From assembly GCA_046350905.1 (NCBI GenBank), contig JAXLZN010000002.1, forward strand, positions 65,293 through 129,292: a DNA stretch of 64,000 nt, in the 5' to 3' direction. Numbering within the stretch: position 1 is the first letter of the stretch; each line of letters starts with the position of its first letter. Source of the DNA: Candidatus Anderseniibacteriota bacterium (GTDB lineage Bacteria > Patescibacteriota > JAUYIX01). Both the position numbers and the translations under genes were made by a program. The notes beneath the pieces were generated by a model. The model was given only the letters and a program-made list of their open reading frames with translations. It was not told the origin of the DNA and made no database searches. Below, piece after piece: positions 2,395 to 61,799 of this stretch.

Positions 2395-2429
<35 letters not shown>

Positions 2430-3679: not shown

Positions 3680-4475
3680 ACAGAGTTAGCAACCTCTTAT
3701 TCCTGCAGTACCATCAGATCTTTTTCCTGCAGAAAAGCGGTTTACACTCCGAAGAGCTTCATCCCGCACGCGGCGTCGCGTCGTCAGACTTTCGTCCATT
3801 GCGAACTATTCCCAACTGCTGCCTCCCGTAGGAGTGGGACCCGTTCTCAGTGTCCCTGTGGCCGTACACCCTCTCGGGCCGGCTACCCGTCGTCGCCTTG
3901 GTGGGCTTTTACCCCGCCAACTAGCTGATAGGCCGCAGACTCCTCCCAAAGCGCAAAAGCTTTACCTACGTAGCCGAAGCTACGCAGACACATTCGGTAT
4001 TAGACCCGCTTTCGCAGGCTTATGCCGAACTTCGGGGCAGATTATCTACGTGTTACTCACCCGTTTGCCACTAGCGTGTAGTTCCCGACATCCGTCGGGC
4101 ACGCCCGTTCGACTTGCATGTTTTAGGCACGCCGCCAGCGTTATTCCTGAGCTAGGATCAAACTCTCAGAACGAGTTCGATCACTCAAAGGTTAACGTTT
4201 GCATGCACCGTACGCACGTGCCGGGACAAACCCGACCGTTAGCAGCACGGTGCTTCTGTCACGTTCCAGTTGTCAAAGTCCATCGATGAAACCGTGCGCT
4301 CAACTCGCGTCGAGCGTGGCTCACGTCACGTGCGGGTTGTCTGGTAGCGGCTTGCACCGCTAGCCCGCGTTTCGGTGGGTTTCCAAGCAGGACCCTCAAT
4401 CCGTTCGCGCCCGAGCAGGCTAGGTCAGGTTGCCGAGCACGTCAAGGACCCGCCTGTGCGTGGGCGGTGGACAGC

Positions 4476-49185: not shown

Positions 49186-49974
49186 CTAGTCGCGCGCACT
49201 CTGCTGCCAGAACGAATTGAATAGGGCGCGCAGCATGCCGACGATGTACTCGTCCGTGATGACAACCGCGATGGGCGTCTTGGGTTGCCACAGCACCACC
49301 TTGTTGGCAAAGAGCTGAATCCCGGTGACAAACGGTGTCACTCCACGTAGTACCCGGGTTTCTCGCAGCTCGGCGACGTCCTTTCCCTTGAGGGTCTCCG
49401 TATCGGGGCTCGGCAGGAGCAGCGCATTAATCTTGATGCCCTTGCGCACGCGTGTGGCGATCCAACGCCGTTCCTCCGCCCACGAGATAAAGCCGATAAA
49501 ATCCTTAGCCGAACCCAGGAACTCCGTCGTCCCCTTGGCCTCATCGAGGATCTGGTAGAAGAGCTTGAGAAACTGATCACGCCCCTCCAGCACCTGGACC
49601 TGCGTCGCGGCGCTGCCCTGCCGGTACATGGCGAGCAAGTCGGGGAGTGCCCCCACGATGTCTTGGTCGTAGGTAGCGAGCGACTCACGCTTCTTACGTA
49701 GCAGCTCGCGCACGGTCGTGGGTGGTTCGACCACAAAGGTGCGTGCGTAGCGCCTGCGTTCCGAAAAGCGTGCCAACCCCTTACGCTCGAGGCCCTGGAT
49801 GAGCTTGTACATGTTGGGTCTCGAGATGCCGAGTCCTTTGGAGAGGGCGGCTAGCGACGCCGGCCCCATTGCCAGCGATAGCACGTAGAGCGCCGTTTCC
49901 TGTTCCGTAAGCCCCAGTTCCCGCAGCGAACTGTACAAGAGACGTTTAACTTGGCTTTGGCTGAGCTTGGCCAT
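49186..49974 (-). CDS. TrmB-family transcriptional regulator (paralog 1)
   Basis: 262-aa ORF with an N-terminal winged HTH (LGLTEQETALYVLSLAMGPASLAALSKGLGISRPNMYKLIQGLERKGLA) plus a TrmB-type C-terminal domain. Same architecture as 57894..58709. Confidence 0.8.
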   Translation of the reverse strand: MAKLSQSQVKRLLYSSLRELGLTEQETALYVLSLAMGPASLAALSKGLGISRPNMYKLIQGLERKGLARFSERRRYARTFVVEPPTTVRELLRKKRESLATYDQDIVGALPDLLAMYRQGSAATQVQVLEGRDQFLKLFYQILDEAKGTTEFLGSAKDFIGFISWAEERRWIATRVRKGIKINALLLPSPDTETLKGKDVAELRETRVLRGVTPFVTGIQLFANKVVLWQPKTPIAVVITDEYIVGMLRALFNSFWQQSARD

Positions 49975-50014
49975 GTCTATCTAATATAAGTATATAGATA
50001 GTATACACATATAA

Positions 50015-50073
50015 TAAATAAAGTCAATACAAAGCCAAATAGTATTGACTAATACGCTATAGTGCGCTATACG
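50015..50073 (+). promoter_or_regulatory. shared operator-like block plus candidate promoter (cassette 1)
   Basis: TAAATAAAG-N13-AAATAG-TATTGACT (50015-50050) matches 58781-58815. There is a dyad AGTCAATA/TATTGACT (50022-29/50043-50). TTGACT (50045-50), 17-nt spacer, TATACG (50068-73). A 5'-UTR hairpin CCAAAC/GTTTGG lies at 50082-50100. GACAAAGGAGA lies at 50127-50137. Confidence 0.5.
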
Positions 50074-50143
50074 TACCGGTTCCAAACAAAAGCCGTTTGG
50101 ACCTCTCGCAAGGGAGAATGTTCCTCGACAAAGGAGACTTATC

Positions 50144-50383
50144 ATGAAGATGAACTGGTCAGACATGAAGACCCTGCCCCGACGTTCCGAGAGGGACGGC
50201 GAATACCTCCTTGGTTTTGGTTTCGTGTTTCCCGACGAGTTCGTCGGTGAGGCCGAGGACCCGGAAGCGCCTCCAAGATTCATCAGCGGTGGGTGGACCA
50301 GGGCGGGGGTGACTGTCTTTCGTGATCGCGACGGCAGCCTGTACGCGGTGCCGTGCGAGGTATTCACCGGATGCAGTGGATGA
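50144..50383 (+). CDS. hypothetical 79-aa protein (first cistron of cassette 1)
   Basis: ATG lies 6 nt after AAGGAGA. MKMNWSDMKTLPRRSERDGEYLLGFGFVFPDEF...GCSG. No family recognised. Confidence 0.55.
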   Translation: MKMNWSDMKTLPRRSERDGEYLLGFGFVFPDEFVGEAEDPEAPPRFISGGWTRAGVTVFRDRDGSLYAVPCEVFTGCSG

Positions 50384-50411
50384 GCCTCTGGGTTAGACAG
50401 ATTTCCTGTGC

Positions 50412-50512
50412 GCAACGCAGCTGCGCAATGCTGCGACCGTTCGGCCAACATACATCGTTTTGGTTGGCCCTCCGTCAGAGCTGCCCTTGTCCGGCGGCTC
50501 TGACGGGGAAAC
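50412..50512 (+). promoter_or_regulatory. conserved three-hairpin RNA element, copy A (candidate cis-regulatory RNA)
   Basis: Aligns with 60550-60643. P1 at 50416-21/50430-35, P2 at 50443-49/50463-69, P3 at 50472-85/50493-506. Ends GGGGAAAC, 4 nt before the ATG at 50517. Confidence 0.6.
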
Positions 50513-50516
50513 ACAC

Positions 50517-51983
50517 ATGACCAAGCAACCAACCATCAAGAAATTAAAGAAAGTTGTCGTACTCGACACTATTTTTTTCTACCCCGAGCACCGGGCGGTC
50601 TTGGAGCAGCTCGCGGATGAAGTCATCGAGTACCCCTCGAGCCTGCCGGAGTCGCTCGAACGGCAGTACGTCGACAACCCGGAGCTATTCCGCAACGTTC
50701 GTTGCTACACGGAGCTCGGCGCCAACAATTCCTCGCTCCAGCTCCTCATGAACCGCATCGATGGCGCCGACTGTGTCATCAGCTGCTGGACGTGCATTCC
50801 TGACGAGATTCTCAAGCTCAACCCGCAGCTCAAGCTGATCGTCTTCTGGACGCACGAGAAGGAGCACCGCCTCAACCTCAAGCTCGCCGAGCAGTTCGGC
50901 ATCACCGTGACAAACATTCCCGACTACGGCACTGACGCGGTCGCGGAGGTCGTCTTTGCGGGACTGCTCGAGGTGCTCGCCAAGAACTACGTTACGCACA
51001 CGCTGCCGCAGAACGAGGAAAGCCTCGCCCTCACGGTCATGCACGAGCTGCTCCGCCGCCGCCGCATGCTCGACCGCAACGAGAAGTACACGCGGGCTGG
51101 GAAGTTCGTGCACCACTTCCACAAGCTCGGCAAGATCACCTTTGATCCCGGGCAGCGGACGCTCGATGAACTTATTCCAGAACGGCTGCTCGCGCGCGCC
51201 GGCGTAGCGCTCATCGGACAGCAGCCGTACGCACATCTCCGCACGTGGTTGCGAGCCTTTGAGGTGGTTGTCGATGAGCTGCCTGTGTTTGACGCGAGCA
51301 AGGCGGAGTTCTACCGCACGCTCGCCCGAAATGACTTCGTCGTGATCAGCAGCAATGAGCTCGATCCGAAGCTCGTGCAGAAAATCAATCTGCTCGCGGG
51401 TGTCAAGGTCGTCGACCTTGCGCAGCTCAAGACGATCGACTGGAGCGTCGCGGGCAAACGCTTTGGCGTGCTCGGTCTCGGCCGCATTGGTTCCAAAGTG
51501 GCGCGGGTCGCGCGCGACGTTGGATTTGAAGTGCAGTTCGCCGCGCGGGTCCCTGCTGCTCGTAGCGACCACCGCCACGTCTCAGTCAGTGAGCTGCTCG
51601 CAACTTCTGACGTGCTCTCGGTGCACCTTCCGGCGCACAAAGCCGACAACTTTTTGTCGGCCGATAAGCTCGCGCTCCTCAAGAAGGGCGGCATCTTCAT
51701 CAACACCGCTGACGGCAACATCACCGACACCGCCAAGCTGACCGAGCTCCTCAGCGCGAACCACGTGCTGGCCTACCTCGACGTCTACCCCGGCCTGCCG
51801 CGCAAGGATGTGTTCGGCTTGCCAATGGAGGACAAAGCGGACTGGAAACTCAAGGCTGCGCTCCCGCGCCACGTGCTCGCCTACCGCGCGGGCTGGAAGA
51901 CGCAGGAATCAATTCGAGTCAAAACCTTTGAGCTGCTCGGCCACATGGTCGACTACCTCACCTCGCACCCCCATGCCCACTGA
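50517..51983 (+). CDS. atypical D-isomer-specific 2-hydroxyacid dehydrogenase-family protein with large internal insertion
   Basis: Catalytic-domain pattern (..LKLIVFW..FGITVTNIPDYGTDAVAEVVFAGLL) and NAD fold GVLGLGRIGSKVARVARDVGFEV. More than 100 extra residues separate them. INTADGN replaces the family NxxRG motif. Confidence 0.7.
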   Translation: MTKQPTIKKLKKVVVLDTIFFYPEHRAVLEQLADEVIEYPSSLPESLERQYVDNPELFRNVRCYTELGANNSSLQLLMNRIDGADCVISCWTCIPDEILKLNPQLKLIVFWTHEKEHRLNLKLAEQFGITVTNIPDYGTDAVAEVVFAGLLEVLAKNYVTHTLPQNEESLALTVMHELLRRRRMLDRNEKYTRAGKFVHHFHKLGKITFDPGQRTLDELIPERLLARAGVALIGQQPYAHLRTWLRAFEVVVDELPVFDASKAEFYRTLARNDFVVISSNELDPKLVQKINLLAGVKVVDLAQLKTIDWSVAGKRFGVLGLGRIGSKVARVARDVGFEVQFAARVPAARSDHRHVSVSELLATSDVLSVHLPAHKADNFLSADKLALLKKGGIFINTADGNITDTAKLTELLSANHVLAYLDVYPGLPRKDVFGLPMEDKADWKLKAALPRHVLAYRAGWKTQESIRVKTFELLGHMVDYLTSHPHAH

Positions 51984-52842
51984 ACGCCAAACGCGAGCAA
52001 CCTTCAACCGGCTCAAGCGGTTCTACGACGCGAGCTGGGACCCCAAACGTAAGACGCTCCACGTCGGTCTGTTCCGACAAGCGGACGACTCCCTGCAGCG
52101 TGCCTACGCGAACGCGACGAGCTACCTGCTCGAGCTCGTCAACGAGCAGCGGCGCATCACCGCGCAATCGGTTGTGCTCGACGTTGGCTGCGGTACAGGA
52201 CAAACGTTGCTCGACCTGTGTGCACGCGTTGGCTGCCGTGGCGTCGGCCTCGATCTGAGCGACGCGCAGGTTTCGCACGCGCGGGCTGACCTCCGCGCCC
52301 GGAATGCGCTGCGAGTCAAGCGCAACCTGCCAAAGCTGCGCTGCACGTTCATCCGCGGCAGTGCGAGCGTGCTCACGCGCCACGTCGGGGCCCGGCCGGA
52401 GTTCACGCACGTGATCAGCCAGGACGCGCTCTTCCTCGCAGCCAACAAGCAGCGCGCGTTCCAGGGCATCGCTACGGTACTTGTCCCAGGCGGCGTGGTC
52501 GGCATCGCAGACTTCCTGCAGCAGGCCTCTGCCGCACGCTACAGTTCGCCCGCCCGTCGCGCGATCTTCAAGGTGGTCAACTGGCAGGAGGGTTTGTCGT
52601 TCGAGCGGTACCAGCGTGCGCTACGTACAGTCGGACTCGACGTCGTCCACGCCGAGCAACGCGATCGCGACATGATCAAGACGTACACGCTGCTCGTCCG
52701 GCAGCTCGCAGCGTTCATCGACCGTCACCCAACCTACCGCACGCTGCGCGAACGGTACCAGAGCATCGTTGCTGCGGTGCGCGCAGGCAAGATGGGGTGG
52801 GCGCTCTGCATCGCGCGCAAGCCGCTCACCGCACGCCAATGA
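51973..52842 (+). CDS. class I SAM-dependent methyltransferase
   Basis: ATG at 51973 overlaps the upstream stop by 11 nt. VLDVGCGTGQTLLDL (motif I), GVGLDLS, and LVPGGVVGIADF (post-II). The N-terminal HVGLF....SLQRA is typical of small-molecule MTases. Confidence 0.8.
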   Translation: MPTERQTRATFNRLKRFYDASWDPKRKTLHVGLFRQADDSLQRAYANATSYLLELVNEQRRITAQSVVLDVGCGTGQTLLDLCARVGCRGVGLDLSDAQVSHARADLRARNALRVKRNLPKLRCTFIRGSASVLTRHVGARPEFTHVISQDALFLAANKQRAFQGIATVLVPGGVVGIADFLQQASAARYSSPARRAIFKVVNWQEGLSFERYQRALRTVGLDVVHAEQRDRDMIKTYTLLVRQLAAFIDRHPTYRTLRERYQSIVAAVRAGKMGWALCIARKPLTARQ

Positions 52843-53582
52843 AGTACGTCATCGGCAACTGGAAGATGAACCCGACCGAGCTGCCCCGCGCGCTCGAACT
52901 GATCCGCGCGACCGAGGCAGCAATCCCGGCCGGCACACCGCGCGGCTGCGTAGCGATCGCGGCACCGTTTGTGTACCTCCACCCGCTTGCCTGCGAGACC
53001 GCTGCCGTCGCACTCGCCGCGCAGGACACCTTCTGGGATCAGGCTGGCGCGTACACTGGGCAGGTCTCGCCCGCCATGCTGAAGGGTCTGGGCGTGCGGT
53101 ACGTCTTGATCGGCCACAGCGAACGCCGCACGCACGCATTTGAAACCGACGCACACATCACGCATAAGGTGCGCGCTGCTCTCGACGCCAATCTACGCGT
53201 GATCCTCGCGGTCGGCTCGCGCGCTCGATCAGAAGCAGCGGTCCTGCGTGACATCCGTCGGCAGCTGCGGGTGCTCGACGTACTCGGCAGCGGTCGTGCG
53301 CAGGGTCGCCGGGATTTGCTCATCGCGTACGAACCGCTCGTGGCGATCGGCACCGGGCAGGCGGCACCAGTCGACCACGTGCGTCGCGTCGCTGCAGAAA
53401 TCAGCAGACTGTCCGGGGCACCCGTGCTGTACGGCGGCAGCATCAGCCGCAAGAACGCGAGCACGTACCTCGCGCTGCCGGAGCTTGCTGGCGTGCTCGT
53501 CGGGAGCGCGAGCCTGCGTGCGCGCGAGTTCGCTGCAATTATCCAGGCTGCCGAGCAACTCTCCCACCACCATGACTCCTAA
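52839..53582 (+). CDS. tpiA: triosephosphate isomerase
   Basis: ATGA overlap with the methyltransferase stop. IGNWKMN, IGHSERR, YEPLVAIGTG and YGGS motifs. The loop-6 Trp of the usual EPxWAIGTG is Val here. Confidence 0.8.
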   Translation: MKYVIGNWKMNPTELPRALELIRATEAAIPAGTPRGCVAIAAPFVYLHPLACETAAVALAAQDTFWDQAGAYTGQVSPAMLKGLGVRYVLIGHSERRTHAFETDAHITHKVRAALDANLRVILAVGSRARSEAAVLRDIRRQLRVLDVLGSGRAQGRRDLLIAYEPLVAIGTGQAAPVDHVRRVAAEISRLSGAPVLYGGSISRKNASTYLALPELAGVLVGSASLRAREFAAIIQAAEQLSHHHDS

Positions 53583-54222
53583 GAAAATCATTCTCGCCGG
53601 CACCAAGCCGCACTCCATCGCACGCGTCATTGGGCGCCACCTGCACGAGCAAGGCTGGGACGTGTGGCTCTACAGTCGTCACGCCAAGCGGGTCGAGCAC
53701 ACTCGCTGGCACGAGCGTCGCTGCGACGTAACGAAATCGGCTGACATTGCACGCCTCCTCTCAGAGGTTGGTACGCCGCAGGCTGTGGTGTTCAGCGCTG
53801 ATTCGGATGGCCACGGCACCATCCAACGTATTTCTGAACGGCGGCTCCGTGCGCTCATCGATGCCAAAGTGACGGGCAGCATTCTCTTGACCAAGCGCGT
53901 GCTCGCACATTCGCGCAAGCCGGTTTCACTCGTGTGGCTGATCGGCAAGATTGGGGTCAAGCCACAGGACCTCTTCCTGTACGGCGTCGTCAACGCGGCA
54001 GTCGTTGCCTTCGTAGATCAGCTCAAAGCGCTGGGTCGAACGGTGCGACCGTACATGCTGCCGCTCGGGGTGATCACGCCATCGACGCTCGGTGATGCGT
54101 ACCTGCGCCAGAATCCCGGGAAGCAGCTTGCGACGGATTCGCCGGTGAACGTCGCACGTTTCGTCGCTCGCATCCTCCGGGGGGGGGTACGCATCCGGTA
54201 CCGTACAAAGGGATCAATCTGA
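53572..54222 (+). CDS. short-chain dehydrogenase/Rossmann-like protein with degenerate SDR motifs
   Basis: ATG at 53572 overlaps the tpiA stop by 11 nt. KKIILAGTKPHSIARVIG sits in place of TGxxxGxG. LYGVVNAAV sits in place of YxxxK (no Lys). Confidence 0.55.
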   Translation: MTPKKIILAGTKPHSIARVIGRHLHEQGWDVWLYSRHAKRVEHTRWHERRCDVTKSADIARLLSEVGTPQAVVFSADSDGHGTIQRISERRLRALIDAKVTGSILLTKRVLAHSRKPVSLVWLIGKIGVKPQDLFLYGVVNAAVVAFVDQLKALGRTVRPYMLPLGVITPSTLGDAYLRQNPGKQLATDSPVNVARFVARILRGGVRIRYRTKGSI

Positions 54223-54325
54223 GATGGTGTAGCACCGCTCGCAATCCGTGATTGCCGTTGCTTGGTCGGGATGTGACCTGACCAGGAAACGGAAATTACG
54301 GAACGTCCTTCACAAGGGAGAAAAC

Positions 54326-54658
54326 ATGAAAAATACTGTGCAGCTCGGGTACCTGCTCCTCCTCATGCTCTCTTTTTTCAACGCGATATTCGGCTCCCAA
54401 CAGCCAACGCTTAGCAGGCTGCTCTGGGCTCTCTTCTACAGCACGTTGGTTATTGCATTCGTGCTGAAACCGCCCGCAGACGATGGGTATGTCGGTGCCG
54501 CCCGAATCGTATACGCGTTTGCGTTACTGATGATGGCTGGATCATGGATTGGTCGAAGTCCAACCCCCATCACGTCAATGTGGAGTGCCATTACTTTTGT
54601 TGTAGCTGCCGACAACTGGCTGCTCTGGAGTAAGTGCCGGACCGAGAGCGATCAGTAA
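54326..54658 (+). CDS. hypothetical small membrane protein (3-4 TM helices)
   Basis: ATG lies 6 nt after AAGGGAGAA. MKNTVQLGYLLLLMLSFFNAIF.. GC is lower than in the upstream operon. Confidence 0.6.
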   Translation: MKNTVQLGYLLLLMLSFFNAIFGSQQPTLSRLLWALFYSTLVIAFVLKPPADDGYVGAARIVYAFALLMMAGSWIGRSPTPITSMWSAITFVVAADNWLLWSKCRTESDQ

Positions 54659-54682
54659 CGTCTTGAAATCTGACGTCGCAGT

Positions 54683-54724
54683 GCCGCCTAGTAGGTCTTC
54701 GGGCTGAACGGCGGCTTCTCTTTG
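54683..54724 (+). terminator. terminator-like hairpin after cassette 1
   Basis: GCCGCC (54683-88) pairs with GGCGGC (54710-15), followed by TTCTCTTT. Confidence 0.45.
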
Positions 54725-54811
54725 GCAAGAACTATGGGGAGCCACCTCCACGCGTGCAGCTGTCCATGCCAACACCCTCATGGTGATCTTCGAGATCGGC
54801 TGGACAGCGGC

Positions 54812-56308
54812 CTACAAACCGCTGCGGCCAAACTTCTTCTCAGATTCGTCGAACTTCCTCTTGAGCTCTTCTGAGCGAAAGAATACATGGCGAGCAGGGT
54901 CGTAGAGAAACCCCATCTGCTCGAACCCCTCGGGCGTGGCGCGTGGATCGCCTGGCGGTAAGCGAAACACTGCTGCCATCTGCTCGAGTGTGTAACGAGG
55001 AATCCAGGTGGCGGGCTGCTCTTGCAGCTGCGACGTTAGCGCGAGCATCCGTTTGCTGACCGAGGCGACTGTATCGTCCGCTGAAATGGGAACCCGCAGA
55101 GAGGCCTCAATGCGCTGCCCGACTTCTTCGACCACTCCTATCCGTCGCACGATGGCACGGTTCGCTTGTGAGAGGTGGTCCCAGCCGATGGTGATCGCAC
55201 CCTCGTTGCCCACGTTCTTAGCGTTGGCTGTGGACATGAGCGTCTCGATGTTCTTGTCGAAGAGCTCCTCTACCGCTGGTATGAGGGGCGGCTCAATCAC
55301 TTCATGAATGAGGCTGCGTTCGGTGAGCAATGTACTACCGGATAGCTCAATGGGCTGCACAGCACGCATGGACGGCGACAGAGGTTCGACCTGGTCCGAC
55401 CCTTCAGCCTCGTCGATGGGCTCTACGGCGCTCTCATTGGGCCAAGGCTCGCGGTTGTCAAAGTAAAGGCCGCCATCGCGCACGGCCTGTTTGGCATCGC
55501 TGCCTTTCATGCTCGGCGCCCTATTGAAGAGCATGACTAGGTCGAACTTCTCCGTCCGCTCCTTGAACTGACTTAACGTTTCTGGCAGGAGGGTAACGAC
55601 GTAGTCCACGCCGCCATGCTTAAAGTGGAGCGTCCTGTGGGTTGTATCGTAGCGGGCCTGCCGGTCGTAGCTGCTCTTGATGCGGTCAACCAGAGCCGCG
55701 ACGTGGCGGTCATCAAGTACGGGATCAACCAGCGTGATGTCTCGGGCACCTGCCAGAATCGCCAGCTCGACGTCGTCCGCTGAACCAAAGTACACGGCCC
55801 GCCGGTAGTGCTCCGGCTCACCTGTAGCAGTGGCATGCTCACTGATCATTTGAGCAAAATGCAGCTTGTCGCGCTTGATCGTGTCCGCAAAGCCAATTGA
55901 GTGGACCTGTAAGTTTCTGGCTAGCACCTGTTCTGCAGGTGGGAGTTTCTCGACTTGGCGCTCGAATTCACGCCGGGTAAGCTCGGCGTTCGCATACATA
56001 TCGGCGAAATCGACGATGTTTTGGTCAAGCGCTGCCCGGTCGACGTGCGCTGCATCAAGCTCGTTCATCGCCGCGTGTGTCTCTATGGCACGCTCGAGCA
56101 CTCCGTTGAGGGTCTCATCGTCGATCTGCGGATGACCGGCCTTCCAACGTTCGGCAGAAACGGTTTGACGGTTCGTAGCCTCCTCAGTCTCGAGCTGCGC
56201 AGGTTGTTCGCCAGGCTGCGACGGCGGCAGGATGCCCTCGTCCTCTCGAGGATCTGGGGCAGGTGCATTCTCTTTCTTAGTGGCCATGCCTGTATGGTAC
56301 TCCTCCAT
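54812..56308 (-). CDS. hypothetical 498-aa protein (acidic N-terminus; possible Rossmann-like core)
   Basis: Intact ORF in a lower-GC region. AVYFGSADDVELAILAGARDITLVDP resembles a nucleotide/SAM-binding beta-alpha-beta strand. No family recognised. Confidence 0.55.
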   Translation of the reverse strand: MEEYHTGMATKKENAPAPDPREDEGILPPSQPGEQPAQLETEEATNRQTVSAERWKAGHPQIDDETLNGVLERAIETHAAMNELDAAHVDRAALDQNIVDFADMYANAELTRREFERQVEKLPPAEQVLARNLQVHSIGFADTIKRDKLHFAQMISEHATATGEPEHYRRAVYFGSADDVELAILAGARDITLVDPVLDDRHVAALVDRIKSSYDRQARYDTTHRTLHFKHGGVDYVVTLLPETLSQFKERTEKFDLVMLFNRAPSMKGSDAKQAVRDGGLYFDNREPWPNESAVEPIDEAEGSDQVEPLSPSMRAVQPIELSGSTLLTERSLIHEVIEPPLIPAVEELFDKNIETLMSTANAKNVGNEGAITIGWDHLSQANRAIVRRIGVVEEVGQRIEASLRVPISADDTVASVSKRMLALTSQLQEQPATWIPRYTLEQMAAVFRLPPGDPRATPEGFEQMGFLYDPARHVFFRSEELKRKFDESEKKFGRSGL

Positions 56309-56516
56309 TCTGCTTGCGCGTGAGCTTCTTTCAACCTTCCGGCAGTACTCTTTACATTTCGCGCAGCATGAACAAGTTCGCTCAGCACCTCGAATAACGC
56401 GGGCCCCTTTACGTATTCACGCAATATGGTTTGATGCGTGCATGGGTGTGGAAACTCCCGGACCAGGCGAAGCTGGGAACGCAGACAAATCAATTGTACG
56501 AGAGCGCGAGGCGGCC

Positions 56517-56969
56517 ATGCAGCGCTACGCCGGCCGCACGTTCAAGACTGAGAAGGGATGGACCTACACGTACGATGACCGCGGGCGTACGACGCGACAG
56601 CAGGCTGAAACCGGACACACGCACGCCCCGCAAGATCTCACGGTTTTTGTCGAAATGAACGTAGAAGAGAAACTATCCTTTGCTGCCGCAATGCATGCAG
56701 AAAATGACGACCCGGCATCAAAGGAAAAGGTTTACGTCGTTGAACGAGGCTCCGACAATCAGCCTCGGATCGTGGAATCGTGGGCAGATATTACCGACCC
56801 ATCGAAGCTATCTATTGCGATTGTGCGTGATGGCAAAATGCTGAGGTTCAAACCGGTCACGCTTCGGCCTAGGGTTGGTTCGTACGTCTTTGATACGAGG
56901 CTATTTCGAGACCGGCACGGCAAGTCGTACAAAGAGAGGCACTTGGGGCACAGAGTTACTGAAGTATAG
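56517..56969 (+). CDS. hypothetical 150-aa protein (alternative start 56442)
   Basis: MQRYAGRTFKTEKGWTYTYDDRG..., with GAGG 5 nt upstream of the ATG. No family recognised. Confidence 0.45.
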   Translation: MQRYAGRTFKTEKGWTYTYDDRGRTTRQQAETGHTHAPQDLTVFVEMNVEEKLSFAAAMHAENDDPASKEKVYVVERGSDNQPRIVESWADITDPSKLSIAIVRDGKMLRFKPVTLRPRVGSYVFDTRLFRDRHGKSYKERHLGHRVTEV

Positions 56970-57020
56970 GTAGTAGAAAAAGTCTTCGGTTAGCTGATGC
57001 TGGGCCGAATATGCTCTACG

Positions 57021-57057
57021 TTCGCTGCACCACTGGCTCGATAAGTTTTTCCGCTAG
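57021..57057. repeat. direct repeat copy 2: orphan hppA 3' fragment
   Basis: 57025-57057 is identical to 48329-48361. TTCGCTG (57021-27) matches 48311-17 if 14 nt (GGCAGTTTGCCCTG) are deleted. There is no hppA body upstream. Confidence 0.95.
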
Positions 57058-57081
57058 ACTGCAGGATCTCGAAGAGCGAAC

Positions 57082-57107
57082 AGAGCGCGGCCGGTAGGCC
57101 GCGCTCT
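57082..57107. terminator. strong hairpin (probable original hppA terminator; also directly follows the stop of the convergent 57111 gene)
   Basis: AGAGCGCGGCC-GGTA-GGCCGCGCTCT, an 11-bp perfect stem. The T-tract is weak on both strands. Confidence 0.5.
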
Positions 57108-57110
57108 TGC

Positions 57111-57884
57111 CTATTGAGCGCTGTCTGTTTGCGTAGAGGATGGGGCCCAGGTAAATCGAACATTTGCGTCGTAGTAGTCCAGCGAACCGTGGCCGGAGTA
57201 CTCCCACCCTTCCGTCGCTAGGATGCCGCGGGGAGATGGCGTAAGGGTGTGCGAGGGTCCTTCCAAAGAATCATCCAGTCCCAAGCCAATTTTCAGCATA
57301 GCCTTATCGTAGTAGGCATCTAAGAACTTTGGCATGGTGAGTTCGCTCAATCGATAATCACCGATAGGACCCTTCACTGGCCCCGGCTTTTGTTCAAAAT
57401 CGGCAATTGCGCTTTTAAGCTCCTCAGGGGGGTTTCCAGAAAAGATTCGTTCCACGTATTCTTTTGCGAGTTCGGGTAACTTGTCATATCGCCCTTTGAT
57501 TGACGGCTCTCTGGAAACAAGGGCCCAGCTTCGTCTTACGGAGTCGTTGAAATCGTCACGTGAAACAAACTCACCGCCGTAGTATGCCTGCTCACCTTTT
57601 GGAACATGCCTCAACACAAGCTTGGAAAGTCTTTCCGCAGTAAGCGGCGCTCCCTCCTCGTCATGTTGAACCCTGAAAATGAGAACGAGGTCATTCTCCT
57701 TGGCGACATCAATGTCTCTCTTGGAGAAGGGTAATGGAGGAATATCGCGTTCAGGAATCTCGATTTTGAGAAACTCAGAAACTTGCTTAGGCCCGATAAC
57801 ATCCCTCCCGAGTATACTTTCCGCGTATTCCAGGTTGGCCTTTTCGTTCTTGCCTTCTGGATTGATGCTTCCGATTTCGCGCAC
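57111..57884 (-). CDS. hypothetical 257-aa protein, co-oriented 9 nt downstream of TrmB paralog 2
   Basis: Intact ORF with low GC. No family recognised. Confidence 0.55.
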   Translation of the reverse strand: MREIGSINPEGKNEKANLEYAESILGRDVIGPKQVSEFLKIEIPERDIPPLPFSKRDIDVAKENDLVLIFRVQHDEEGAPLTAERLSKLVLRHVPKGEQAYYGGEFVSRDDFNDSVRRSWALVSREPSIKGRYDKLPELAKEYVERIFSGNPPEELKSAIADFEQKPGPVKGPIGDYRLSELTMPKFLDAYYDKAMLKIGLGLDDSLEGPSHTLTPSPRGILATEGWEYSGHGSLDYYDANVRFTWAPSSTQTDSAQ

Positions 57885-57893
57885 GGCTTATTG

Positions 57894-58709
57894 TTAGGTC
57901 TTACTGCTTGAGGATACTCCAGCCCACGCCAGCTCAAAGATCATGACCATCATGTCGTGAATGGTTTTGTCCTCGATGATCGTAGCAGCAAACTGAGGAC
58001 CGCTGAAGTTGATTATCGAGACCTTGTTGATACCATAGACGGTAATGTCGCTCTTATACGGAAAGAGCTTCTGCGGCACGTGCCGGACTTTTGGCCAAAT
58101 CTTCTTTGAGTAGCCTGCGTAGATGGTCTTGCTGTAGTCCACATCGACTTCGGTGTAGGGCAGCACGGCTCGGGCTGTGATCGACAGCTTCTCTTTCCTA
58201 CGGATGTACGTGTGAATGAACTTCTCGGGCAGGAACTTCAGCAGATCCGCAGTGTTCGCAAATGCCAGCATTTCGTAGGGCCCCTTCCCTGATACGTGGT
58301 CCTCGAAGACCTTCAGGACGCCCTCTTTACCCTCAAAGAACCTGACAATCGGCTTGTTAGCGGCGTGCGAGTAGAGCCCCTCCAGCGTAGGGAGGAGAGC
58401 CTGCATGCTCTCGAGGTCTCGCTTGGCGAGGGTGATACGAGACTGCGCATGCCGTTCTAGGCTCTTGGGGTTCTCAACCTGGTAGAAGAGCTTGTTGCGC
58501 TTCTCAAGCTCAGAAACGAGTCCTTTGACGGCCAGGTTCTCCAGCACTTTGTAGGTAGTGCTGCGGTTGAGCTTGGTGAGTTCCGCAACCTTGGATGGGT
58601 AGGCCCCACCTGCTTGGAGGAGGGCAGCGTAGACAGCAGCCTCCTTTCCAGCCAGCCCGGCTTTCCTGAGCTGTTTTTGGATGTTGCTGTCTTCAGTAGC
58701 CATCTGCAA
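57894..58709 (-). CDS. TrmB-family transcriptional regulator (paralog 2)
   Basis: 271-aa ORF with a wHTH (AGLAGKEAAVYAALLQAGGAYPSKVAELTKLNRSTTYKVLENLAVKGLV) and a C-terminal domain colinear with 49186..49974. Confidence 0.8.
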   Translation of the reverse strand: MQMATEDSNIQKQLRKAGLAGKEAAVYAALLQAGGAYPSKVAELTKLNRSTTYKVLENLAVKGLVSELEKRNKLFYQVENPKSLERHAQSRITLAKRDLESMQALLPTLEGLYSHAANKPIVRFFEGKEGVLKVFEDHVSGKGPYEMLAFANTADLLKFLPEKFIHTYIRRKEKLSITARAVLPYTEVDVDYSKTIYAGYSKKIWPKVRHVPQKLFPYKSDITVYGINKVSIINFSGPQFAATIIEDKTIHDMMVMIFELAWAGVSSSSKT

Positions 58710-58780
58710 ACCAGTCTACGCTGTATTACCAATTTTGTCAATTCTAACGAACAAAATGAAAGTAGAATGAAATATTTGTT

Positions 58781-58836
58781 TAAATAAAGCCATAAACAGC
58801 AAATAGATTGGCATTGTAGAAGCACAAAATATGAAT
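58781..58836 (+). promoter_or_regulatory. shared operator-like block plus candidate promoter (cassette 2)
   Basis: TAAATAAAG-N11-AAATAG-ATTGGCA (58781-58813). TTGGCA (58808-13), 17-nt spacer, ATGAAT (58831-36). A 5'-UTR hairpin GTTTCC/GGAAAC lies at 58855-70. GACAAAGGAGA lies at 58880-90. Confidence 0.5.
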
Positions 58837-58899
58837 TCCGAGCTACAAAGATCTGTTTCCAAAGGGAAACAAATTCATTGACAAAGGAGATAGAACGCC

Positions 58900-60519
58900 A
58901 TGGCTAAGCCCAAGGTGCTGTTCGTCAAGGCCGCGCAGGAGAGCGATGCTACCTGGGACCCGATCCGGATGAGCCCTAACCAGGGCCTCTGGTACCTGGC
59001 CTCGGAGCTGCGCGAGCAGGGCTACTACGTGCGTCTCATCGATGAGACCACGCGCCACGGCGGACTCCACAAGCACTCCATGGTGCACCGCACGATCAAG
59101 CTGGCCACCAAGGCTGGCGAGGTCGACGAGGTGTACGAGGTGCCTGTGGTGACGCCGTTCGCCGATCATATCCGGAGCAAGATGGAAGACTTCGAGCGGC
59201 TCTCCCCTGGAGAGTTCGTCGAGAAGCACTCCGCCTTCCGGATTCCCGGCGAGATCAACCGCACGGTCGTCCGGACCGGCAACCCCATCGAGCACACGCT
59301 CGAGGACATCGAGCGGGAGCTGGCCAGCGGAGACGCGGTGATCGTGGGCATTCCGTTGCCTGCCACCTCGAACTACGTTTCGGCCACTCGGCTCGGCAAG
59401 GCCATCAAGGACACCTTCGGCCAGCACGTGAAGGTGATCTACGGTGGGCAGCACATCACGGCGATGCCGGGGCAGTTCCTCAAGGACAACCCCTGGGTCG
59501 ACGTGGCCGTGTGCGGGGATGCCGTGACGACGATCGAGCGGGCGCTCCAGTGCGCGCTCGATGGGACCACCAAGGTCGTCTGGAGGATGTGCGGGGATAA
59601 GACGGCGAGGCAGGAGGACATTTCCTGCTACCCGCTGCTCGACCCCACGCTCCTCGAGGAGAACGAGTACCCGACGCGCCCCAACCATACGTTCGATACG
59701 GATGGGCGCAGGTGGGTGGACTTCATGACCTCCAAGGGTTGCGGGCTGAGCTGCGAGTTCTGCGGCGTCAGCGGCATTCCCAAGGAGGAGAAGAAGTACT
59801 CGGCGATTCCGCTCGATAAGCTCGAGCAGCAGCTCTTGCTGTTCAAGCGGGCGGACATCTCCGAGCTCGTGATCCAGGACGACGCGGTCCTGTCGAACAA
59901 GCTTCTCCCGGGGGCAGTCGCGCTCTTCAAAAAGCACGGCTTCTCCTGGCAGAACAACGGCGGCATCGAGTACGAGAGGATCGACGATGCAACCGTGGAG
60001 CAGTGGAGCGCGTACAACCGCTCGGGCGAGGGTCGCACCACCGCGCTCTACGTGCCCTTCAATCCACGCGAGTGGAACGAGGGGCAGAGCGCTGGCGTGA
60101 CCCAGACCCAGCGGCGGCCCCACGTGGTCGAGCTCCTCAAGAAGCTGCGCGAGTCTGGCTGCTACGTGTTCTCTTCGGAGATCATCGGGCAACCGACCGA
60201 GCGGCGCGAGGAGTCCGGGCGCGATACGGCCCGGTACATCGACCTGGTGCGTGAGGGCTACATCGATCAGGCCCTCACGTTTTCCGCCACAGTCCTGCCG
60301 GGCACCAAGTGGTCATGGAAGCACGGCGCCCTCGTGGTCAGTAGCATTGACTACGTCGGGTACAGCCTGTTCACCACGCACCACCGCACCTACTGCATCT
60401 CCGACCCGCGCGAGATCGAGCGCTGGGTGGTTGAGCGGAACAAGACGCTCAACGAGGTGCAGCGCTCCTACGCCTGGGGCACGGCGTTTCCAAACGTCGG
60501 GCCGCAGGTGGGTGAGTGA
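58900..60519 (+). CDS. B12-binding-domain radical SAM enzyme (class B-like)
   Basis: Intact 539-aa ORF. N-terminal Rossmann-like cobalamin-binding-type region (VLFVKAA...GLWYLASELREQGYYVRLID..., ..VIVGIPL..., VIYGGQHITAMP). Radical SAM CxxxCxxC (GCGLSCEFCG, 59740-59763). Confidence 0.8.
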   Translation: MAKPKVLFVKAAQESDATWDPIRMSPNQGLWYLASELREQGYYVRLIDETTRHGGLHKHSMVHRTIKLATKAGEVDEVYEVPVVTPFADHIRSKMEDFERLSPGEFVEKHSAFRIPGEINRTVVRTGNPIEHTLEDIERELASGDAVIVGIPLPATSNYVSATRLGKAIKDTFGQHVKVIYGGQHITAMPGQFLKDNPWVDVAVCGDAVTTIERALQCALDGTTKVVWRMCGDKTARQEDISCYPLLDPTLLEENEYPTRPNHTFDTDGRRWVDFMTSKGCGLSCEFCGVSGIPKEEKKYSAIPLDKLEQQLLLFKRADISELVIQDDAVLSNKLLPGAVALFKKHGFSWQNNGGIEYERIDDATVEQWSAYNRSGEGRTTALYVPFNPREWNEGQSAGVTQTQRRPHVVELLKKLRESGCYVFSSEIIGQPTERREESGRDTARYIDLVREGYIDQALTFSATVLPGTKWSWKHGALVVSSIDYVGYSLFTTHHRTYCISDPREIERWVVERNKTLNEVQRSYAWGTAFPNVGPQVGE

Positions 60520-60549
60520 CGTGCCACCGAGGATGTCGCATCAGCGACC

Positions 60550-60643
60550 GCAACGCAGCTGCGCAGCGCTGCGACATGGCCAACTCATTGATTAGTTGGC
60601 CCTCCGTCAGAGCCGCTCTTCTCGGCGGTTCTGACGGGGAAAC
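60550..60643 (+). promoter_or_regulatory. conserved three-hairpin RNA element, copy B
   Basis: P1 at 60554-59/60568-73, P2 at 60578-84/60595-601, P3 at 60604-16/60625-37, ending GGGGAAAC. Lies between the radical SAM stop and the 106-aa ORF. Confidence 0.6.
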
Positions 60644-60673
60644 CCGATCGTACATTAGAGAGGAGAAACCAAA

Positions 60674-60994
60674 ATGAACTCTGCCGAAAAGTTCGTGCGT
60701 TTGTCCGAGGCCAATTTGATCACCGAGTGCACCCAGATCAAGACCTCGTTCCACGACCTCAAGCGGCTGACCATCAACACGGTCGGCATGATGCGTATCC
60801 AGTTCCAGGGCGACGTGCCCCGGATGCGCACGCAGAACTGGGATGGTAGCTACGACGTGGACATCTACTCCGATAGCGTCGTGACCATTCACGACCAGCA
60901 CGGAGTCCACTGCTACGTCGTGACCTGGTCCAAGCGGAGCGACAAGCTGCCGACCACGCACATCCTGCCGCGCCTCCCGGAGGTCGAGGACTAG
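60674..60994 (+). CDS. hypothetical 106-aa protein (last cistron of cassette 2)
   Basis: ATG lies 8 nt after GAGAGGAGAAA. MNSAEKFVRLSEANLITECTQIKTSFHDL... No family recognised. Confidence 0.6.
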   Translation: MNSAEKFVRLSEANLITECTQIKTSFHDLKRLTINTVGMMRIQFQGDVPRMRTQNWDGSYDVDIYSDSVVTIHDQHGVHCYVVTWSKRSDKLPTTHILPRLPEVED

Positions 60995-61166: not shown

Positions 61167-61799
61167 TTAACTGACTTCCAGAGCGTCGATAGGTACGTTG
61201 CCCAACGCTCGCATCGGCCGTTCTTCTCCACGCGACAAACTGACATATCGTGCCCATGACACATAATCGGCGATCTGGCCGTTGAGATCGGCCATCGTAC
61301 TGTGGAAGAACACGTGAAACGGTTTTCCTGTCGTTTTCAAGACCGGCTTAATCGCTTTCAACAATGCACGTTGCTCTTTCCGGATAAGCGTCTTGTCGAA
61401 GATAACCACTATTCTTTTTAGCGGTGTCGTTGACCAAATCTGTAGCGTTCGAGTAAGCAGTGCACGGCCAAATCGAGCATACATAGACACGGGGTCCCGC
61501 AAATTAGTGGGGAGCAGCCGTTTCTGAGCGTGCGCAACGCAGCACCTAATTCCGTGTGTACTGTTGATAGTGGAGAAGACTTGATCGCGCACTAATTGCG
61601 CATCTGGTGCGGCATGAAAAAAGGGAACGTCGATGCCACGCGACAGAAGCCAGTACCGCAGCTGTAGCAACGGACGCGCCGATGCGATGGGCTGCATGGT
61701 CGACATAGATCCCATCACAAAGTACTTGGTGCCAAGCTCAGAAAAATCGAAGTTGCCAGACTCGTCAATGAAAACGAATAACGTGCCTTGTGTGTTCAC
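61167..61799 (-). CDS. DUF3800-family protein
   Basis: 210-aa ORF with low GC. N-terminal LFVFIDESGNFDF matches the DUF3800 IDESG signature. Confidence 0.65.
   Translation of the reverse strand: MNTQGTLFVFIDESGNFDFSELGTKYFVMGSMSTMQPIASARPLLQLRYWLLSRGIDVPFFHAAPDAQLVRDQVFSTINSTHGIRCCVAHAQKRLLPTNLRDPVSMYARFGRALLTRTLQIWSTTPLKRIVVIFDKTLIRKEQRALLKAIKPVLKTTGKPFHVFFHSTMADLNGQIADYVSWARYVSLSRGEERPMRALGNVPIDALEVS

What the first reader, a model, noticed from the sequence alone, without database searches (positions are those of the whole stretch)
50412..50512. Conserved ~100-nt three-hairpin RNA element abutting the start codon of the dehydrogenase operon (copy A)
Seen:
- 50412-50512 aligns with 60550-60643 at roughly four fifths identity by eye, although the flanking genes are unrelated.
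- Both copies form the same three stems.
- P1 is CGCAGC/GCTGCG.
- P2 is GGCCAAC/GTTGGCC, with unrelated loops of 13 vs 10 nt.
- P3 is 13-14 bp, CCGTCAGAG../..CTCTGACGG.
- The stem differences in P3 are G-C vs G-U and U-G vs C-G, so pairing is kept.
- Both copies end in GGGGAAAC.
- A 1-nt length difference inside P3 breaks any common reading frame.
- Copy A ends 4 nt before the ATG at 50517, so the 3' arm of P3 overlaps the only purine-rich SD-like stretch (GACGGGGAAAC).

Inference:
- This is a cis-acting structured RNA. It could be a riboswitch, a protein-binding leader, or an intercistronic processing or stability element.
- I do not recognise it as a known riboswitch class from memory.
Basis: partly seen in the sequence, partly recalled or inferred. 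Interest (0 to 1): 0.75.

Follow-up and report, generated by a model that had tools for sequence, protein, structure and literature searches.

The report
Conserved hairpin RNA tail of rSAM gene
The two ~100-base look-alike sequences are real. They are not a metabolite sensor for the dehydrogenase genes: they belong to a small, previously unlisted family of multi-hairpin RNA segments that follows one radical-SAM enzyme gene in a few related ultra-small (CPR) bacteria, and this genome carries a second copy.

Summary
Copy A (50396-50512) and copy B (60535-60643) are about 81% identical and are the only two copies in the window. Rfam has no match.

The interpretation needs changing. Homologs of P0-P1-P2 lie 13-20 nt after the stop codon of the orthologous B12-binding radical-SAM gene in four other CPR (Andersenbacteria-like) lineages. 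Compensatory changes occur in P0, P1 and P2. In two of those lineages P2 is followed by a U-rich tract, making it terminator-like, and P3 is missing. Five dehydrogenase orthologs have short, AT-rich leaders with no Shine-Dalgarno sequence and no element. An ortholog of the 79-aa gene upstream of copy A also lacks the element.

So copy B sits at the ancestral position, the rSAM 3'-UTR or intercistronic spacer. Copy A is a lineage-specific duplicate. Its stems have been maintained: 3 of 58 paired columns differ, against 20 of 44 unpaired.

The most likely role is a 3'-end, stability or read-through module acting in cis. A factor-binding or sRNA role for the invariant P1 loop (GCGCA) remains open. 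A riboswitch is very unlikely. This is a new small RNA motif of a known kind, of moderate interest.

The parts
50396..50512 (+). Copy A, whole element (P0-P1-P2-P3 plus AAAC tail). It lies between the 79-aa gene and the dehydrogenase gene.
   Evidence: R1 131.8 bits; R2 85 bits at 50396-50469; folds
50396..50410 (+). Copy A P0 hairpin (ACAG / CUGU, 4 bp, 5-nt loop). It is weak (-2.9 kcal/mol). It is homologous in position to GUCGC/GCGAC in the other copies.
   Evidence: Chance formation cannot be fully excluded.
50411..50415 (+). Linker CGCAA. The CGC is invariant in all homologs.
50416..50435 (+). Copy A P1 (CGCAGC / GCUGCG) with loop UGCGCAAU. The loop core GCGCA is invariant in all homologs.
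50443..50469 (+). Copy A P2 (GGCCAAC / GUUGGCC, 13-nt loop)
50470..50508 (+). Copy A P3, a 16-bp hairpin (-31.3 kcal/mol). The 5' arm starts with the anti-SD-like CUCC and the 3' arm ends with GGGG.
   Evidence: probability unpaired about 0 for 50495-50508
60535..60643 (+). Copy B, whole element. It lies in the rSAM 3'-UTR / spacer before the 106-aa gene, which is the ancestral position.
   Evidence: R1 114.4 bits; R2 81.5 bits; folds; orthologous position in L062, L066, L065 and L103
60535..60548 (+). Copy B P0 (GUCGC / GCGAC)
60554..60573 (+). Copy B P1 (loop UGCGCAGC)
60578..60601 (+). Copy B P2 (10-nt loop, or 8 nt with the extra U-A pair)
60602..60639 (+). Copy B P3, 16 bp (-29.5 kcal/mol)
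58900..60519 (+). B12-binding radical-SAM gene whose 3' end carries the element in five lineages
50144..50383 (+). 79-aa small-protein gene upstream of copy A. It is a real gene, with a 43% identical homolog in L121.
50517..51983 (+). 2-hydroxyacid-dehydrogenase-family gene, first of dh-MT-TIM-SDR. Its start codon sits in an unpaired A/C-rich stretch 8 nt after P3.
60674..60994 (+). 106-aa orphan gene downstream of copy B. It has its own strong SD (GAGGAGA) and its own terminator.

Best explanation
**What it is**
The element is a sense-strand structured RNA segment made of independent consecutive hairpins (P0, P1, P2, and in this lineage P3). It belongs to the 3' end of the B12-binding radical-SAM transcript of a small clade of Andersenbacteria-like CPR bacteria. 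Copy B is the orthologous, vertically inherited copy. Copy A is a duplicate specific to this lineage. It landed 12 nt behind the stop codon of a small gene that sits between the TrmB-divergent promoter and the dehydrogenase operon.

**Inferred mechanism (not shown)**
- The hairpins form co-transcriptionally and act in cis on the fate of the upstream cistron's 3' end.
- In the AT-richer relatives, P2 plus a U-rich tract is the intrinsic terminator.
- In this genome and in L066, the U-tract is replaced by a 16-bp GC clamp (P3) with an A-rich tail. P3 should not terminate. It would therefore let transcription run into the next cistron while still blocking 3'-to-5' exonucleases and segmenting mRNA stability.
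- The invariant linker CGC and P1 loop GCGCA suggest an additional sequence-specific contact: a protein, a CGC:GCG pseudoknot, or loop-loop pairing.
- In copy A, P3 also locks up the GGGG stretch. The dehydrogenase is probably translated without an SD, as in its orthologs.
For: **Shown**
- Two copies only, folding as described.
- Homologs occur 13-20 nt after the rSAM stop codon in L062, L103, L066 and L065.
- 95.7% of cells are paired. Six genuine pairs in P0-P2 change on both sides (P0 3, P1 1, P2 2). One search counts 7, but the P3 one is an alignment artefact. None of 500 shuffles reached the observed values.
- Stems are conserved and loops are free between A and B (p 1.6e-6).
- L062 P2 scores as a terminator: 10 bp followed by TTTAACTTTATTTATTTTTTT.
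- P3 is followed by AAAC, not by U. Real terminators in this window do have U-rich tails.
- The rSAM tree ((L066,W),(L065,L062)),L063 puts the element in one clade and P3 in one sub-branch.
- Dehydrogenase orthologs lack the element and lack an SD.
- The dehydrogenase start region is unpaired, and GGGG is never unpaired.
- G-U pairs favour the sense strand in the window copies.

**Inferred**
- The effect on stability and read-through.
Against: - There are no expression, 3'-end or half-life data.
- Only five lineages are available. Two are cut off by contig ends, and two are identical within the element.
- P3 shows only wobble changes, with no double compensation.
- A plain stabiliser or terminator does not explain why the P1 loop and the CGC linker are invariant.
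- It also does not explain why L062 and L103 are 81/81 identical in the element while their flanks are about 81% identical or unrelated.
- L063 does without the element and uses an ordinary terminator.
- The sense/antisense folding energies do not favour the sense strand in L062 or L066.
- Copy number in the rest of the genome is unknown.
Confidence: 0.42

Rival explanations
1. It is a regulatory RNA domain with a specific partner. One form would be a 3'-UTR-derived small RNA (P0-P1 plus the P2 terminator) acting in trans. The other would be a docking site for an RNA-binding protein or a second RNA. In either form the invariant P1 loop (YGCGCARY, self-complementary core GCGC/UGCGCA) would be the recognition element. 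In this genome the two copies would then place the rSAM and dehydrogenase transcripts under the same factor.
For: - The linker CGC and the loop GCGCA are invariant in all lineages while the other loops vary freely.
- The L062 form (two hairpins, then a terminator hairpin and U-tract) has the anatomy of a bacterial sRNA.
- The element is 81/81 identical between L062 and L103 despite diverged flanks.
- The rSAM and dehydrogenase/MT/TIM genes are neighbours in relatives. Each is transcribed divergently from a TrmB paralog. This suggests a shared pathway.
Against: - No promoter-like sequence precedes the element.
- There is no processing evidence.
- No target complementarity was found in the rSAM or dehydrogenase leaders (read by eye).
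- Invariant positions cannot show covariation.
- The sample is very small.
Confidence: 0.22
2. It is a DNA-level or selfish repeat. One form would be a REP/BOX/MITE-like palindromic intergenic repeat. The other would be a recombination hotspot or site that marks junctions of gene rearrangement. Hairpin conservation would then reflect DNA or ssDNA recognition or recent spread, not RNA function.
For: - The two direct copies flank a 10.1-kb segment whose gene order is rearranged relative to relatives.
- Gene content right after the element differs in every lineage.
- The element is identical between L062 and L103 with sharp borders.
- Two Logan contigs end inside the element, as happens at repeats or strain-variable junctions.
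- P3 has a 16-bp-arm, 6-7-bp-spacer layout.
Against: - Only 2 copies occur in 64 kb, and none elsewhere in about 100 kb of relatives' loci.
- The position after one gene is conserved through 61-81% protein identity among the carrier lineages.
- There are no terminal inverted repeats.
- There is no transposase, integrase, RAYT or reverse transcriptase nearby.
- The P3 spacers differ in length and sequence, so the two copies are not a compatible recombination pair.
- The dehydrogenase lies inside the 'segment' yet is syntenic with TrmB in all relatives.
- Nothing was found in 185,579 species genomes or IMG/VR with P3/P1 patterns.
- The G-U pairs would be A-C mismatches on the other strand.
Confidence: 0.13
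3. In copy A the element was co-opted as a constitutive translational damper. P3 pairs the anti-SD-like CUCC with the GGGG eight nucleotides upstream of the dehydrogenase AUG. This would keep dehydrogenase translation low or make it depend on an unwinding factor.
For: - GGGGAAAC-ACAC-AUG has the format of the ribosome-binding sites of neighbouring genes: GGAGAAAC-CAAA-AUG and GGGAGAAAAC-AUG.
- The 16S 3' end carries CCUCC.
- GGGG is fully paired.
Against: - Orthologous dehydrogenase genes have no SD at all.
- The start codon lies in an unpaired A/C-rich stretch suited to SD-independent initiation.
- Copy B has the same P3 but is not next to a start codon.
- No alternative fold would release GGGG.
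Confidence: 0.1
4. It is a riboswitch or ligand-sensing leader that controls the dehydrogenase operon.
For: - It is structured and GC-rich, and abuts a start codon in a metabolic operon.
- It is not a known class.
Against: - It is absent from all five orthologous leaders.
- The conserved association is with the upstream gene.
- It is a row of independent hairpins with variable junctions and loops, with no multi-helix junction or conserved pocket.
- There is no terminator/antiterminator or SD/anti-SD alternative.
- P3 is too stable to switch.
- Copy B has 30 nt and an independent SD between it and the next gene.
Confidence: 0.03

Closest known systems
Intercistronic / 3'-UTR stabilising stem-loops in polycistronic mRNAs (from my own knowledge, for example the Rhodobacter capsulatus puf operon hairpins and the REP hairpins between E. 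coli malE and malF)
   Same: Very stable GC-rich hairpins without a U-tail. They sit a few nucleotides after the stop codon of an upstream cistron and before a co-transcribed downstream cistron. They are expected to block 3' exonucleases and give cistrons unequal stability.
   Different: This element is locus-specific and inherited with one gene across genera. It has four hairpins in a fixed order. It also has an invariant loop (GCGCA) and linker (CGC) that a pure exonuclease barrier would not need.
Rho-independent (intrinsic) terminators
   Same: In L062 and L103, P2 is a 10-bp GC-rich stem followed by a U-rich tract. It passes the terminator scan.
   Different: In both window copies and in L066, P2 is followed directly by P3, and P3 by AAAC. 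No hairpin has a U-tail. Genuine terminators in the same window do have one.
3'-UTR-derived small RNAs of enterobacteria (for example CpxQ, SroC, DapZ; from my own knowledge)
   Same: A conserved structured segment at the 3' end of a protein-coding gene, ending (in L062) in the gene's terminator. It has a short invariant single-stranded or loop motif that could act as a seed.
   Different: There is no evidence of processing or of an internal promoter. No target was identified. Chaperones such as Hfq or ProQ are not known here. In the window the segment is read through into another cistron.
Dispersed palindromic intergenic repeats (REP/BIME, pneumococcal BOX/RUP, Neisseria Correia elements)
   Same: About 100 nt, imperfect palindromes, intergenic, more than one copy in a genome, and found at sites of rearrangement.
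   Different: Only two copies were seen. There are no terminal inverted repeats or target duplications and no cognate transposase. The syntenic position is conserved in five lineages. No hits were found in other taxa.
Riboswitches and other cis-regulatory leaders in Rfam 15
   Same: A structured RNA next to a start codon (copy A only).
   Different: No Rfam match. There is no conserved junction or pocket and no expression platform. The element is not conserved with the downstream gene.
Staphylococcus aureus icaR 3'-UTR anti-SD motif (from my own knowledge)
   Same: A C-rich anti-SD-like motif (CCUCC) located in a 3'-UTR.
   Different: Here the motif is locked inside P3 by GGGG of the same element. 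No pairing with the rSAM 5'-UTR SD is evident.

Membership tests
Any Rfam 15 family | Covariance-model score at or above the family's gathering threshold | tested here: not met
   Gathering scan of the whole window and a permissive E<=10 scan of 50300-50600. No relevant match.
Riboswitch (generic) | Conserved association with the downstream regulated gene(s) across genomes | tested here: not met
   Five dehydrogenase orthologs lack the element. The downstream gene after the rSAM-linked copies differs or is absent.
Riboswitch (generic) | Conserved unpaired nucleotides in junctions forming a ligand pocket, with covarying stems | tested here: not met
   The hairpins are consecutive with no multi-helix junction. 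J1/2 and the P2 and P3 loops vary. Only the P1 loop and the CGC linker are invariant.
Riboswitch (generic) | Expression platform with mutually exclusive folds (terminator/antiterminator or SD/anti-SD) | tested here: not met
   MFE and centroid structures agree. P3 is -31 kcal/mol with probability unpaired about 0, and no competing helix was found.
Riboswitch (generic) | Ligand-dependent structural change | not testable with these tools
   Needs in-line probing or SHAPE.
Rho-independent terminator | GC-rich hairpin immediately followed by a U-rich tract | tested here: not met
   Not met for the window copies: P2 is followed by P3, and P3 by AAAC. Met for the L062 homolog and weakly for L103.
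REP/BOX/MITE-like dispersed repeat | Many copies at unrelated intergenic sites in one genome | tested here: inconclusive
   2 copies in 64 kb and none in other loci of relatives. The rest of the genome could not be searched. Two Logan contigs end inside the element.
REP/BOX/MITE-like dispersed repeat | Terminal inverted repeats, a conserved GTAG-type head, or an associated transposase (RAYT, IS200/605) | tested here: not met
   The ends CGCAA... and ...GGGGAAAC are not inverted repeats. There are no transposase-like genes in the window region.
Integron attC site | A single long imperfect hairpin with R''(RYYYAAC)/R'(GTTRRRY) outer boxes and inner L''/L' boxes, 57-141 nt, at the 3' end of promoterless cassettes next to an integron integrase | tested here: not met
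   GGCCAAC/GTTGGCC matches 6 of 7 positions in each box, but they close only a 24-27-nt hairpin with no L boxes. The element is four separate hairpins. No integrase is present in the window.
3'-UTR-derived sRNA | Discrete stable RNA species released from the mRNA 3' end, with a conserved seed and target | not testable with these tools
   The anatomy is compatible in L062. There are no transcript data.
Intercistronic / 3' stabilising stem-loop | Stable hairpin(s) just downstream of a cistron within a transcript, on the sense strand | tested here: met
   The element begins 12-20 nt after the stop codon in all six instances. There is no promoter between the upstream gene and the element. Folding energy is -57 to -62 kcal/mol. 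The G-U pairs are sense-specific in the window copies.
Intercistronic / 3' stabilising stem-loop | Measured protection of the upstream mRNA segment from decay | not testable with these tools
   Needs half-life or 3'-end mapping.

The most novel reading that the evidence does not exclude
The element could be a new class of CPR-specific regulatory RNA domain. It would be carried in the 3'-UTR of a cobalamin-dependent radical-SAM gene. Its invariant, self-complementary P1 loop (UGCGCA) and CGC linker would mediate a specific tertiary, loop-loop or protein contact. In this genome the duplicate would put the dehydrogenase-methyltransferase-TIM operon and the rSAM gene under one post-transcriptional control.
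Probability: 0.15. Interest if true: 0.6.

Novelty: new member of a known kind. Interest (0 to 1): 0.35.

Why it matters
- Almost nothing is known about post-transcriptional control or mRNA 3'-end formation in CPR/Patescibacteria, which cannot be grown alone.
- A structured 3'-UTR or intercistronic element that is kept for a long time with one gene would be one of the few concrete handles on RNA-level gene organisation in this group. It shows compensatory changes and has been duplicated within a functionally linked gene neighbourhood.
- It is also a caution. A GC-rich structured element next to a start codon looked like a riboswitch, and comparison with orthologous loci showed that it belongs to the gene upstream.
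- The motif could be added to RNA family collections once more genomes are available.

Tried and rejected
1. **Known RNA family.** Rfam gathering and permissive scans were negative.
2. **Wider distribution.**
   - A P3-arm pattern scanned against 185,579 species genomes gave 30 hits, all chance or an unrelated Tannerella repeat.
   - The same pattern and two others against IMG/VR gave only chance hits.
   - A P0/P1 pattern against JGI metagenomes gave 52 hits, of which only L103 was real.
3. **Further copies.** Two covariance models found no extra or degenerate copies in the window. The weak hit at 54237-54294, which ends in CCAGGAAAC, is within chance (3 mismatches in 14).
4. **Copy A as the tail of a decayed rSAM duplicate.**
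   - For: the 79-aa gene's RBS region, TTCCTCGACAAAGGAGA, resembles the rSAM's.
   - Against: there is no protein similarity above shuffled controls.
   - Against: the 79-aa protein has a genuine homolog behind the orthologous promoter in L121.
   - The shared 5'-UTR box is better explained by the paralogy of the two TrmB-promoter units.
5. **Coding potential.** A stop-codon read-through or SECIS-like role was rejected. The frames through the element differ between copies and the stop codons differ among homologs. A peptide-coding reading was rejected because of indels that are not multiples of three.
6. **Integron attC, tyrosine-recombinase core site, or Campbell-type insertion of the 10-kb segment.** Rejected. 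The dehydrogenase is syntenic with TrmB in all relatives. There is no recombinase. The P3 spacers are incompatible.
7. **Conserved closing helix around the four hairpins.** The ones predicted differ between copies A and B.
8. **Literature.** No paper in the library describes this motif or CPR 3'-UTR elements.

Full report
**1. Observation**

The two sequences are present as described. Copy A (50411-50512) and copy B (60549-60643) align at 81% identity (blastn E 4e-21; MAFFT). The flanking sequence on either side shows no significant similarity. Pattern searches with mismatches and two covariance models run without filters find no further copy on either strand of the 64-kb window.

Each copy folds on its own into the same consecutive hairpins:
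- P1: 6 bp with an 8-nt loop.
- P2: 7-8 bp with loops of 13 and 10 nt.
- P3: 16 bp, not 13-14, at -31.3 and -29.5 kcal/mol.

Whole-element z-scores are -5.4 and -4.8. The three stem differences in P3 are all C/U opposite G. The P3 loop is 7 nt in A and 6 nt in B. Both copies end in GGGGAAAC, and copy A ends 4 nt before ATG 50517.

Between the copies, 3 of 58 paired columns differ against 20 of 44 unpaired columns (Fisher p 1.6e-6). The stems have therefore been kept in both copies since the duplication.

**2.

- *Organism.* The window comes from a MAG named Candidatus Andersenbacteria (CPR/Patescibacteria). It has 62.5% G+C.
- *Position.* Both copies lie just behind a co-directional gene.
  - Copy A lies after a 79-aa ORF (50144-50383). 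The ORF has a good SD and coding-like GC3.
  - Copy B lies after a B12-binding radical-SAM (rSAM) gene (58900-60519).
- *Extra hairpin.* A fourth hairpin, P0, sits 12-15 nt after each stop codon (50396-50410 and 60535-60548).
- *Promoters.* No promoter-like sequence precedes either copy. Both are therefore internal to polycistronic transcripts: 79aa-A-dh-MT-TIM-SDR and rSAM-B-106aa.

**3. Relatives of the dehydrogenase**

The dehydrogenase is a CPR-wide family of about 490 aa. Five orthologous loci were read: L033/L034, L062, L035, L119 and L120.

In all of them the divergent TrmB-dehydrogenase spacer is only 127-153 nt. It is AT-rich, and a TTGACA/TATAAT-type promoter lies close to the ATG. 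None has an SD or the element. In the window the spacer is 543 nt.

The extra DNA is the 79-aa gene plus copy A. The 79-aa protein has one homolog (43% identity, E 9e-11). It is encoded in L121 behind the clearly orthologous promoter. There it is followed by unrelated hairpins and no element.

**4. Relatives of the rSAM gene**

Only four close orthologs exist in the protein collection, at 68-71% identity. Behind their stop codons:
- **L062** has P0, P1 and P2, then TTTAACTTTATTTATTTTTTT (R1 26.4 bits, R2 73.8 bits). P2 there scores as an intrinsic terminator, and P3 is missing.
- **L103**, from the JGI metagenome scan, has the same P0-P2. It is followed after about 30 nt by a different co-directional gene.
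- **L066** has P0, P1, P2 and the first 20 nt of P3 before the contig ends (R2 91.4 bits).
- **L065** has P0 and the 5' arm of P1 before its contig ends.
- **L063/L064** have only a plain terminator.

A neighbour-joining tree of the rSAM proteins gives ((L066,W),(L065,L062)),L063. The element was therefore gained once, or lost once in L063. P3 belongs to the W/L066 branch.

Copy B is thus the orthologous copy. Copy A is a secondary copy. It keeps some states seen in the relatives that copy B has lost: the P1 loop UGCGCAAU, GUUC in J1/2, and the GCC that follows the stop codon.

**5. Structure support**

On the six-sequence alignment A4, 95.7% of cells pair. One search counts seven pairs with changes on both sides:
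- P0: three.
- P1: one (C-G to U-A).
- P2: two (C-G to G-C, and U-A/C-G).
- P3: one, an artefact of aligning the L062/L103 U-tract against P3.

That leaves six genuine compensatory pairs, all in P0-P2. None of 500 shuffles and none of the slid controls reach these values.

Caveats:
- The sample is small.
- L062 and L103 are identical in the element.
- P3 shows only wobble changes.
- Copy A's 4-bp P0 could have arisen by chance.

The linker CGC and the P1-loop core GCGCA are invariant everywhere, although the other loops vary freely. UGCGCA is self-complementary. CGC could also pair with the loop GCG as a compact pseudoknot. Neither idea can be tested on invariant columns.

G-U pairs favour the sense strand in the window copies, by 3-6 kcal/mol. 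The same is not true in L062 or L066.

**6. What it is not**

- *Not in Rfam*.
- *Not a riboswitch or dehydrogenase leader.* It is not conserved with the downstream gene. It has no junction pocket and no alternative fold. P3 is never open.
- *The SD-like GGGG is not a regulated SD.* It is permanently sequestered by the anti-SD-like CUCC. The orthologs have no SD. The dehydrogenase start lies in an unpaired A/C-rich stretch. The 16S 3' end does carry CCUCC, so a constitutive damping effect of copy A cannot be excluded.
- *Not a canonical terminator in this genome.* P3 is followed by AAAC. Real terminators nearby have U-rich tails.
- *Not demonstrably a mobile or recombination element.*
  - There are no terminal inverted repeats.
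  - There is no transposase, integrase or reverse transcriptase among the genes between or around the copies.
  - The P3 spacers are incompatible.
  - There are no hits in 185,579 species genomes or in viral contigs.

Some facts keep a DNA-level or repeat reading alive at low probability:
- The element is 81/81 identical between L062 and L103 inside flanks that are about 81% identical or unrelated.
- Gene content behind the element varies between lineages.
- Two Logan contigs end inside it.
- The rest of the genome could not be searched.

**7. Most likely mechanism (inferred)**

The element is a cis-acting module at the 3' end of the upstream cistron. In the AT-richer relatives, P2 plus the U-tract terminates transcription. 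In the GC-rich W/L066 branch the U-tract is replaced by the P3 clamp. P3 should let the polymerase pass into the next cistron while still protecting the upstream message from 3' exonucleases. P0 and P1 add stability. Through the invariant loop and linker they may also provide a specific contact.

The main rival is that this contact is the real function, as a protein- or RNA-binding domain or a 3'-UTR-derived sRNA. I rate the stability/read-through reading at about 0.4 and the specific-partner reading at about 0.2. Repeat or recombination is about 0.13, co-opted translational damping of the dehydrogenase about 0.1, and a riboswitch about 0.03.

**8. Novelty and interest**

No described family matches, and no paper in the library mentions it. 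It is a new, narrowly distributed RNA motif of a familiar kind: a 3'-UTR or intercistronic stem-loop element. The compensatory changes and the within-genome duplicate under selection make it a credible functional RNA in a poorly understood phylum. It is rare, its function is unproven, and the more exciting riboswitch reading is not supported. Interest is 0.35.

Noticed in passing
window 1809-4173 (- strand): The 16S rRNA gene is split into two Rfam matches (1809-2983 and 3620-4173). A group I intron match lies at 3384-3689. This is an intron- or insertion-bearing SSU gene, as often reported for CPR bacteria. The 3' end carries a canonical CCUCC anti-SD.
   Followed up: partly
window 50121-50137 and 58874-58890; L066 ~85-107; L062 ~5650-5665; L121 ~147-160: The 5'-UTRs of the 79-aa/83-aa gene and of the rSAM gene share a box: GTTCNTYGAVAAA, or TTCNTYGACAAAGGAGA in the window. 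It occurs nowhere else in the window. Both genes are transcribed divergently from paralogous TrmB-family regulators that are 27% identical. This could be a shared operator or leader motif, or a trace of an old duplication of the regulator-promoter unit.
   Followed up: partly
window 49975-50078; L121 1-100; L033 1960-2087; L035 8397-8550; L119 726-871: The TrmB-divergent promoter region is conserved across lineages: AAGTCAA ... TATTGACA-N17-TATACT. It probably holds the TrmB operator. The dehydrogenase orthologs start 10-40 nt after the -10 box without an SD, so they appear to be leaderless or short-leader genes.
   Followed up: partly
window 49186-60994 compared with L062 4653-9731: Gene order is rearranged between relatives. 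In L062 it is TrmB2<->rSAM -> <- TIM-TrmB1 <-> dehydrogenase. In the window, TIM has moved into the dehydrogenase operon (dh-MT-TIM-SDR), and the TrmB2<->rSAM unit lies 7 kb downstream.
   Followed up: partly
window 54326-58709 and 61167-61799: This is a lower-GC stretch (48-59%, GC3 0.53-0.72) holding genes of unknown function: a 110-aa membrane-like protein, 498 aa, 245 aa, 257 aa, TrmB2 and DUF3800. They have no Pfam, PHROG or PADLOC assignment apart from the TrmB2 and DUF3800 domains. The stretch may be horizontally acquired.
   Followed up: partly
window 60674-60994; L121 556-804: The 106-aa protein after copy B has no homolog among 5.8 billion clustered proteins. It does share a short motif, T-x-x-W-(D/N)-G-S-Y-D, with the 82-aa protein that follows the 79-aa homolog in L121 (E 0.003 pairwise). 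If they are related, the 79-aa and 106-aa genes were once neighbours.
   Followed up: partly
proteins P0091, P0113, P0127, P0167: Both the long 2-hydroxyacid-dehydrogenase family and the B12-rSAM family have their next-closest relatives in DPANN archaea (Woesearchaeota, Nanoarchaeia) as well as CPR bacteria. This suggests a shared gene set of episymbiont lineages, possibly for lipid or glycerol-phosphate modification together with the CMAS-like methyltransferase and TIM.
   Followed up: no
L062 7410-7440 vs L103 1160-1120 (- strand): Downstream of the element, L062 keeps a remnant (TTAGTAAACGTGCC) of the start of the small membrane-protein gene that is intact in L103 (ATGAGTAAACTTGCC). A U-tract has replaced the spacer. 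This suggests a recent gene loss that turned an intercistronic element into a terminal one.
   Followed up: partly
window 54237-54294: The spacer between SDR and the 110-aa gene has two small hairpins, starts with CGCAAT and ends with CCUGACCAGGAAAC. That loosely echoes the ends of the element (R1 10.7 bits, E 0.57). I judged it to be chance.
   Followed up: yes
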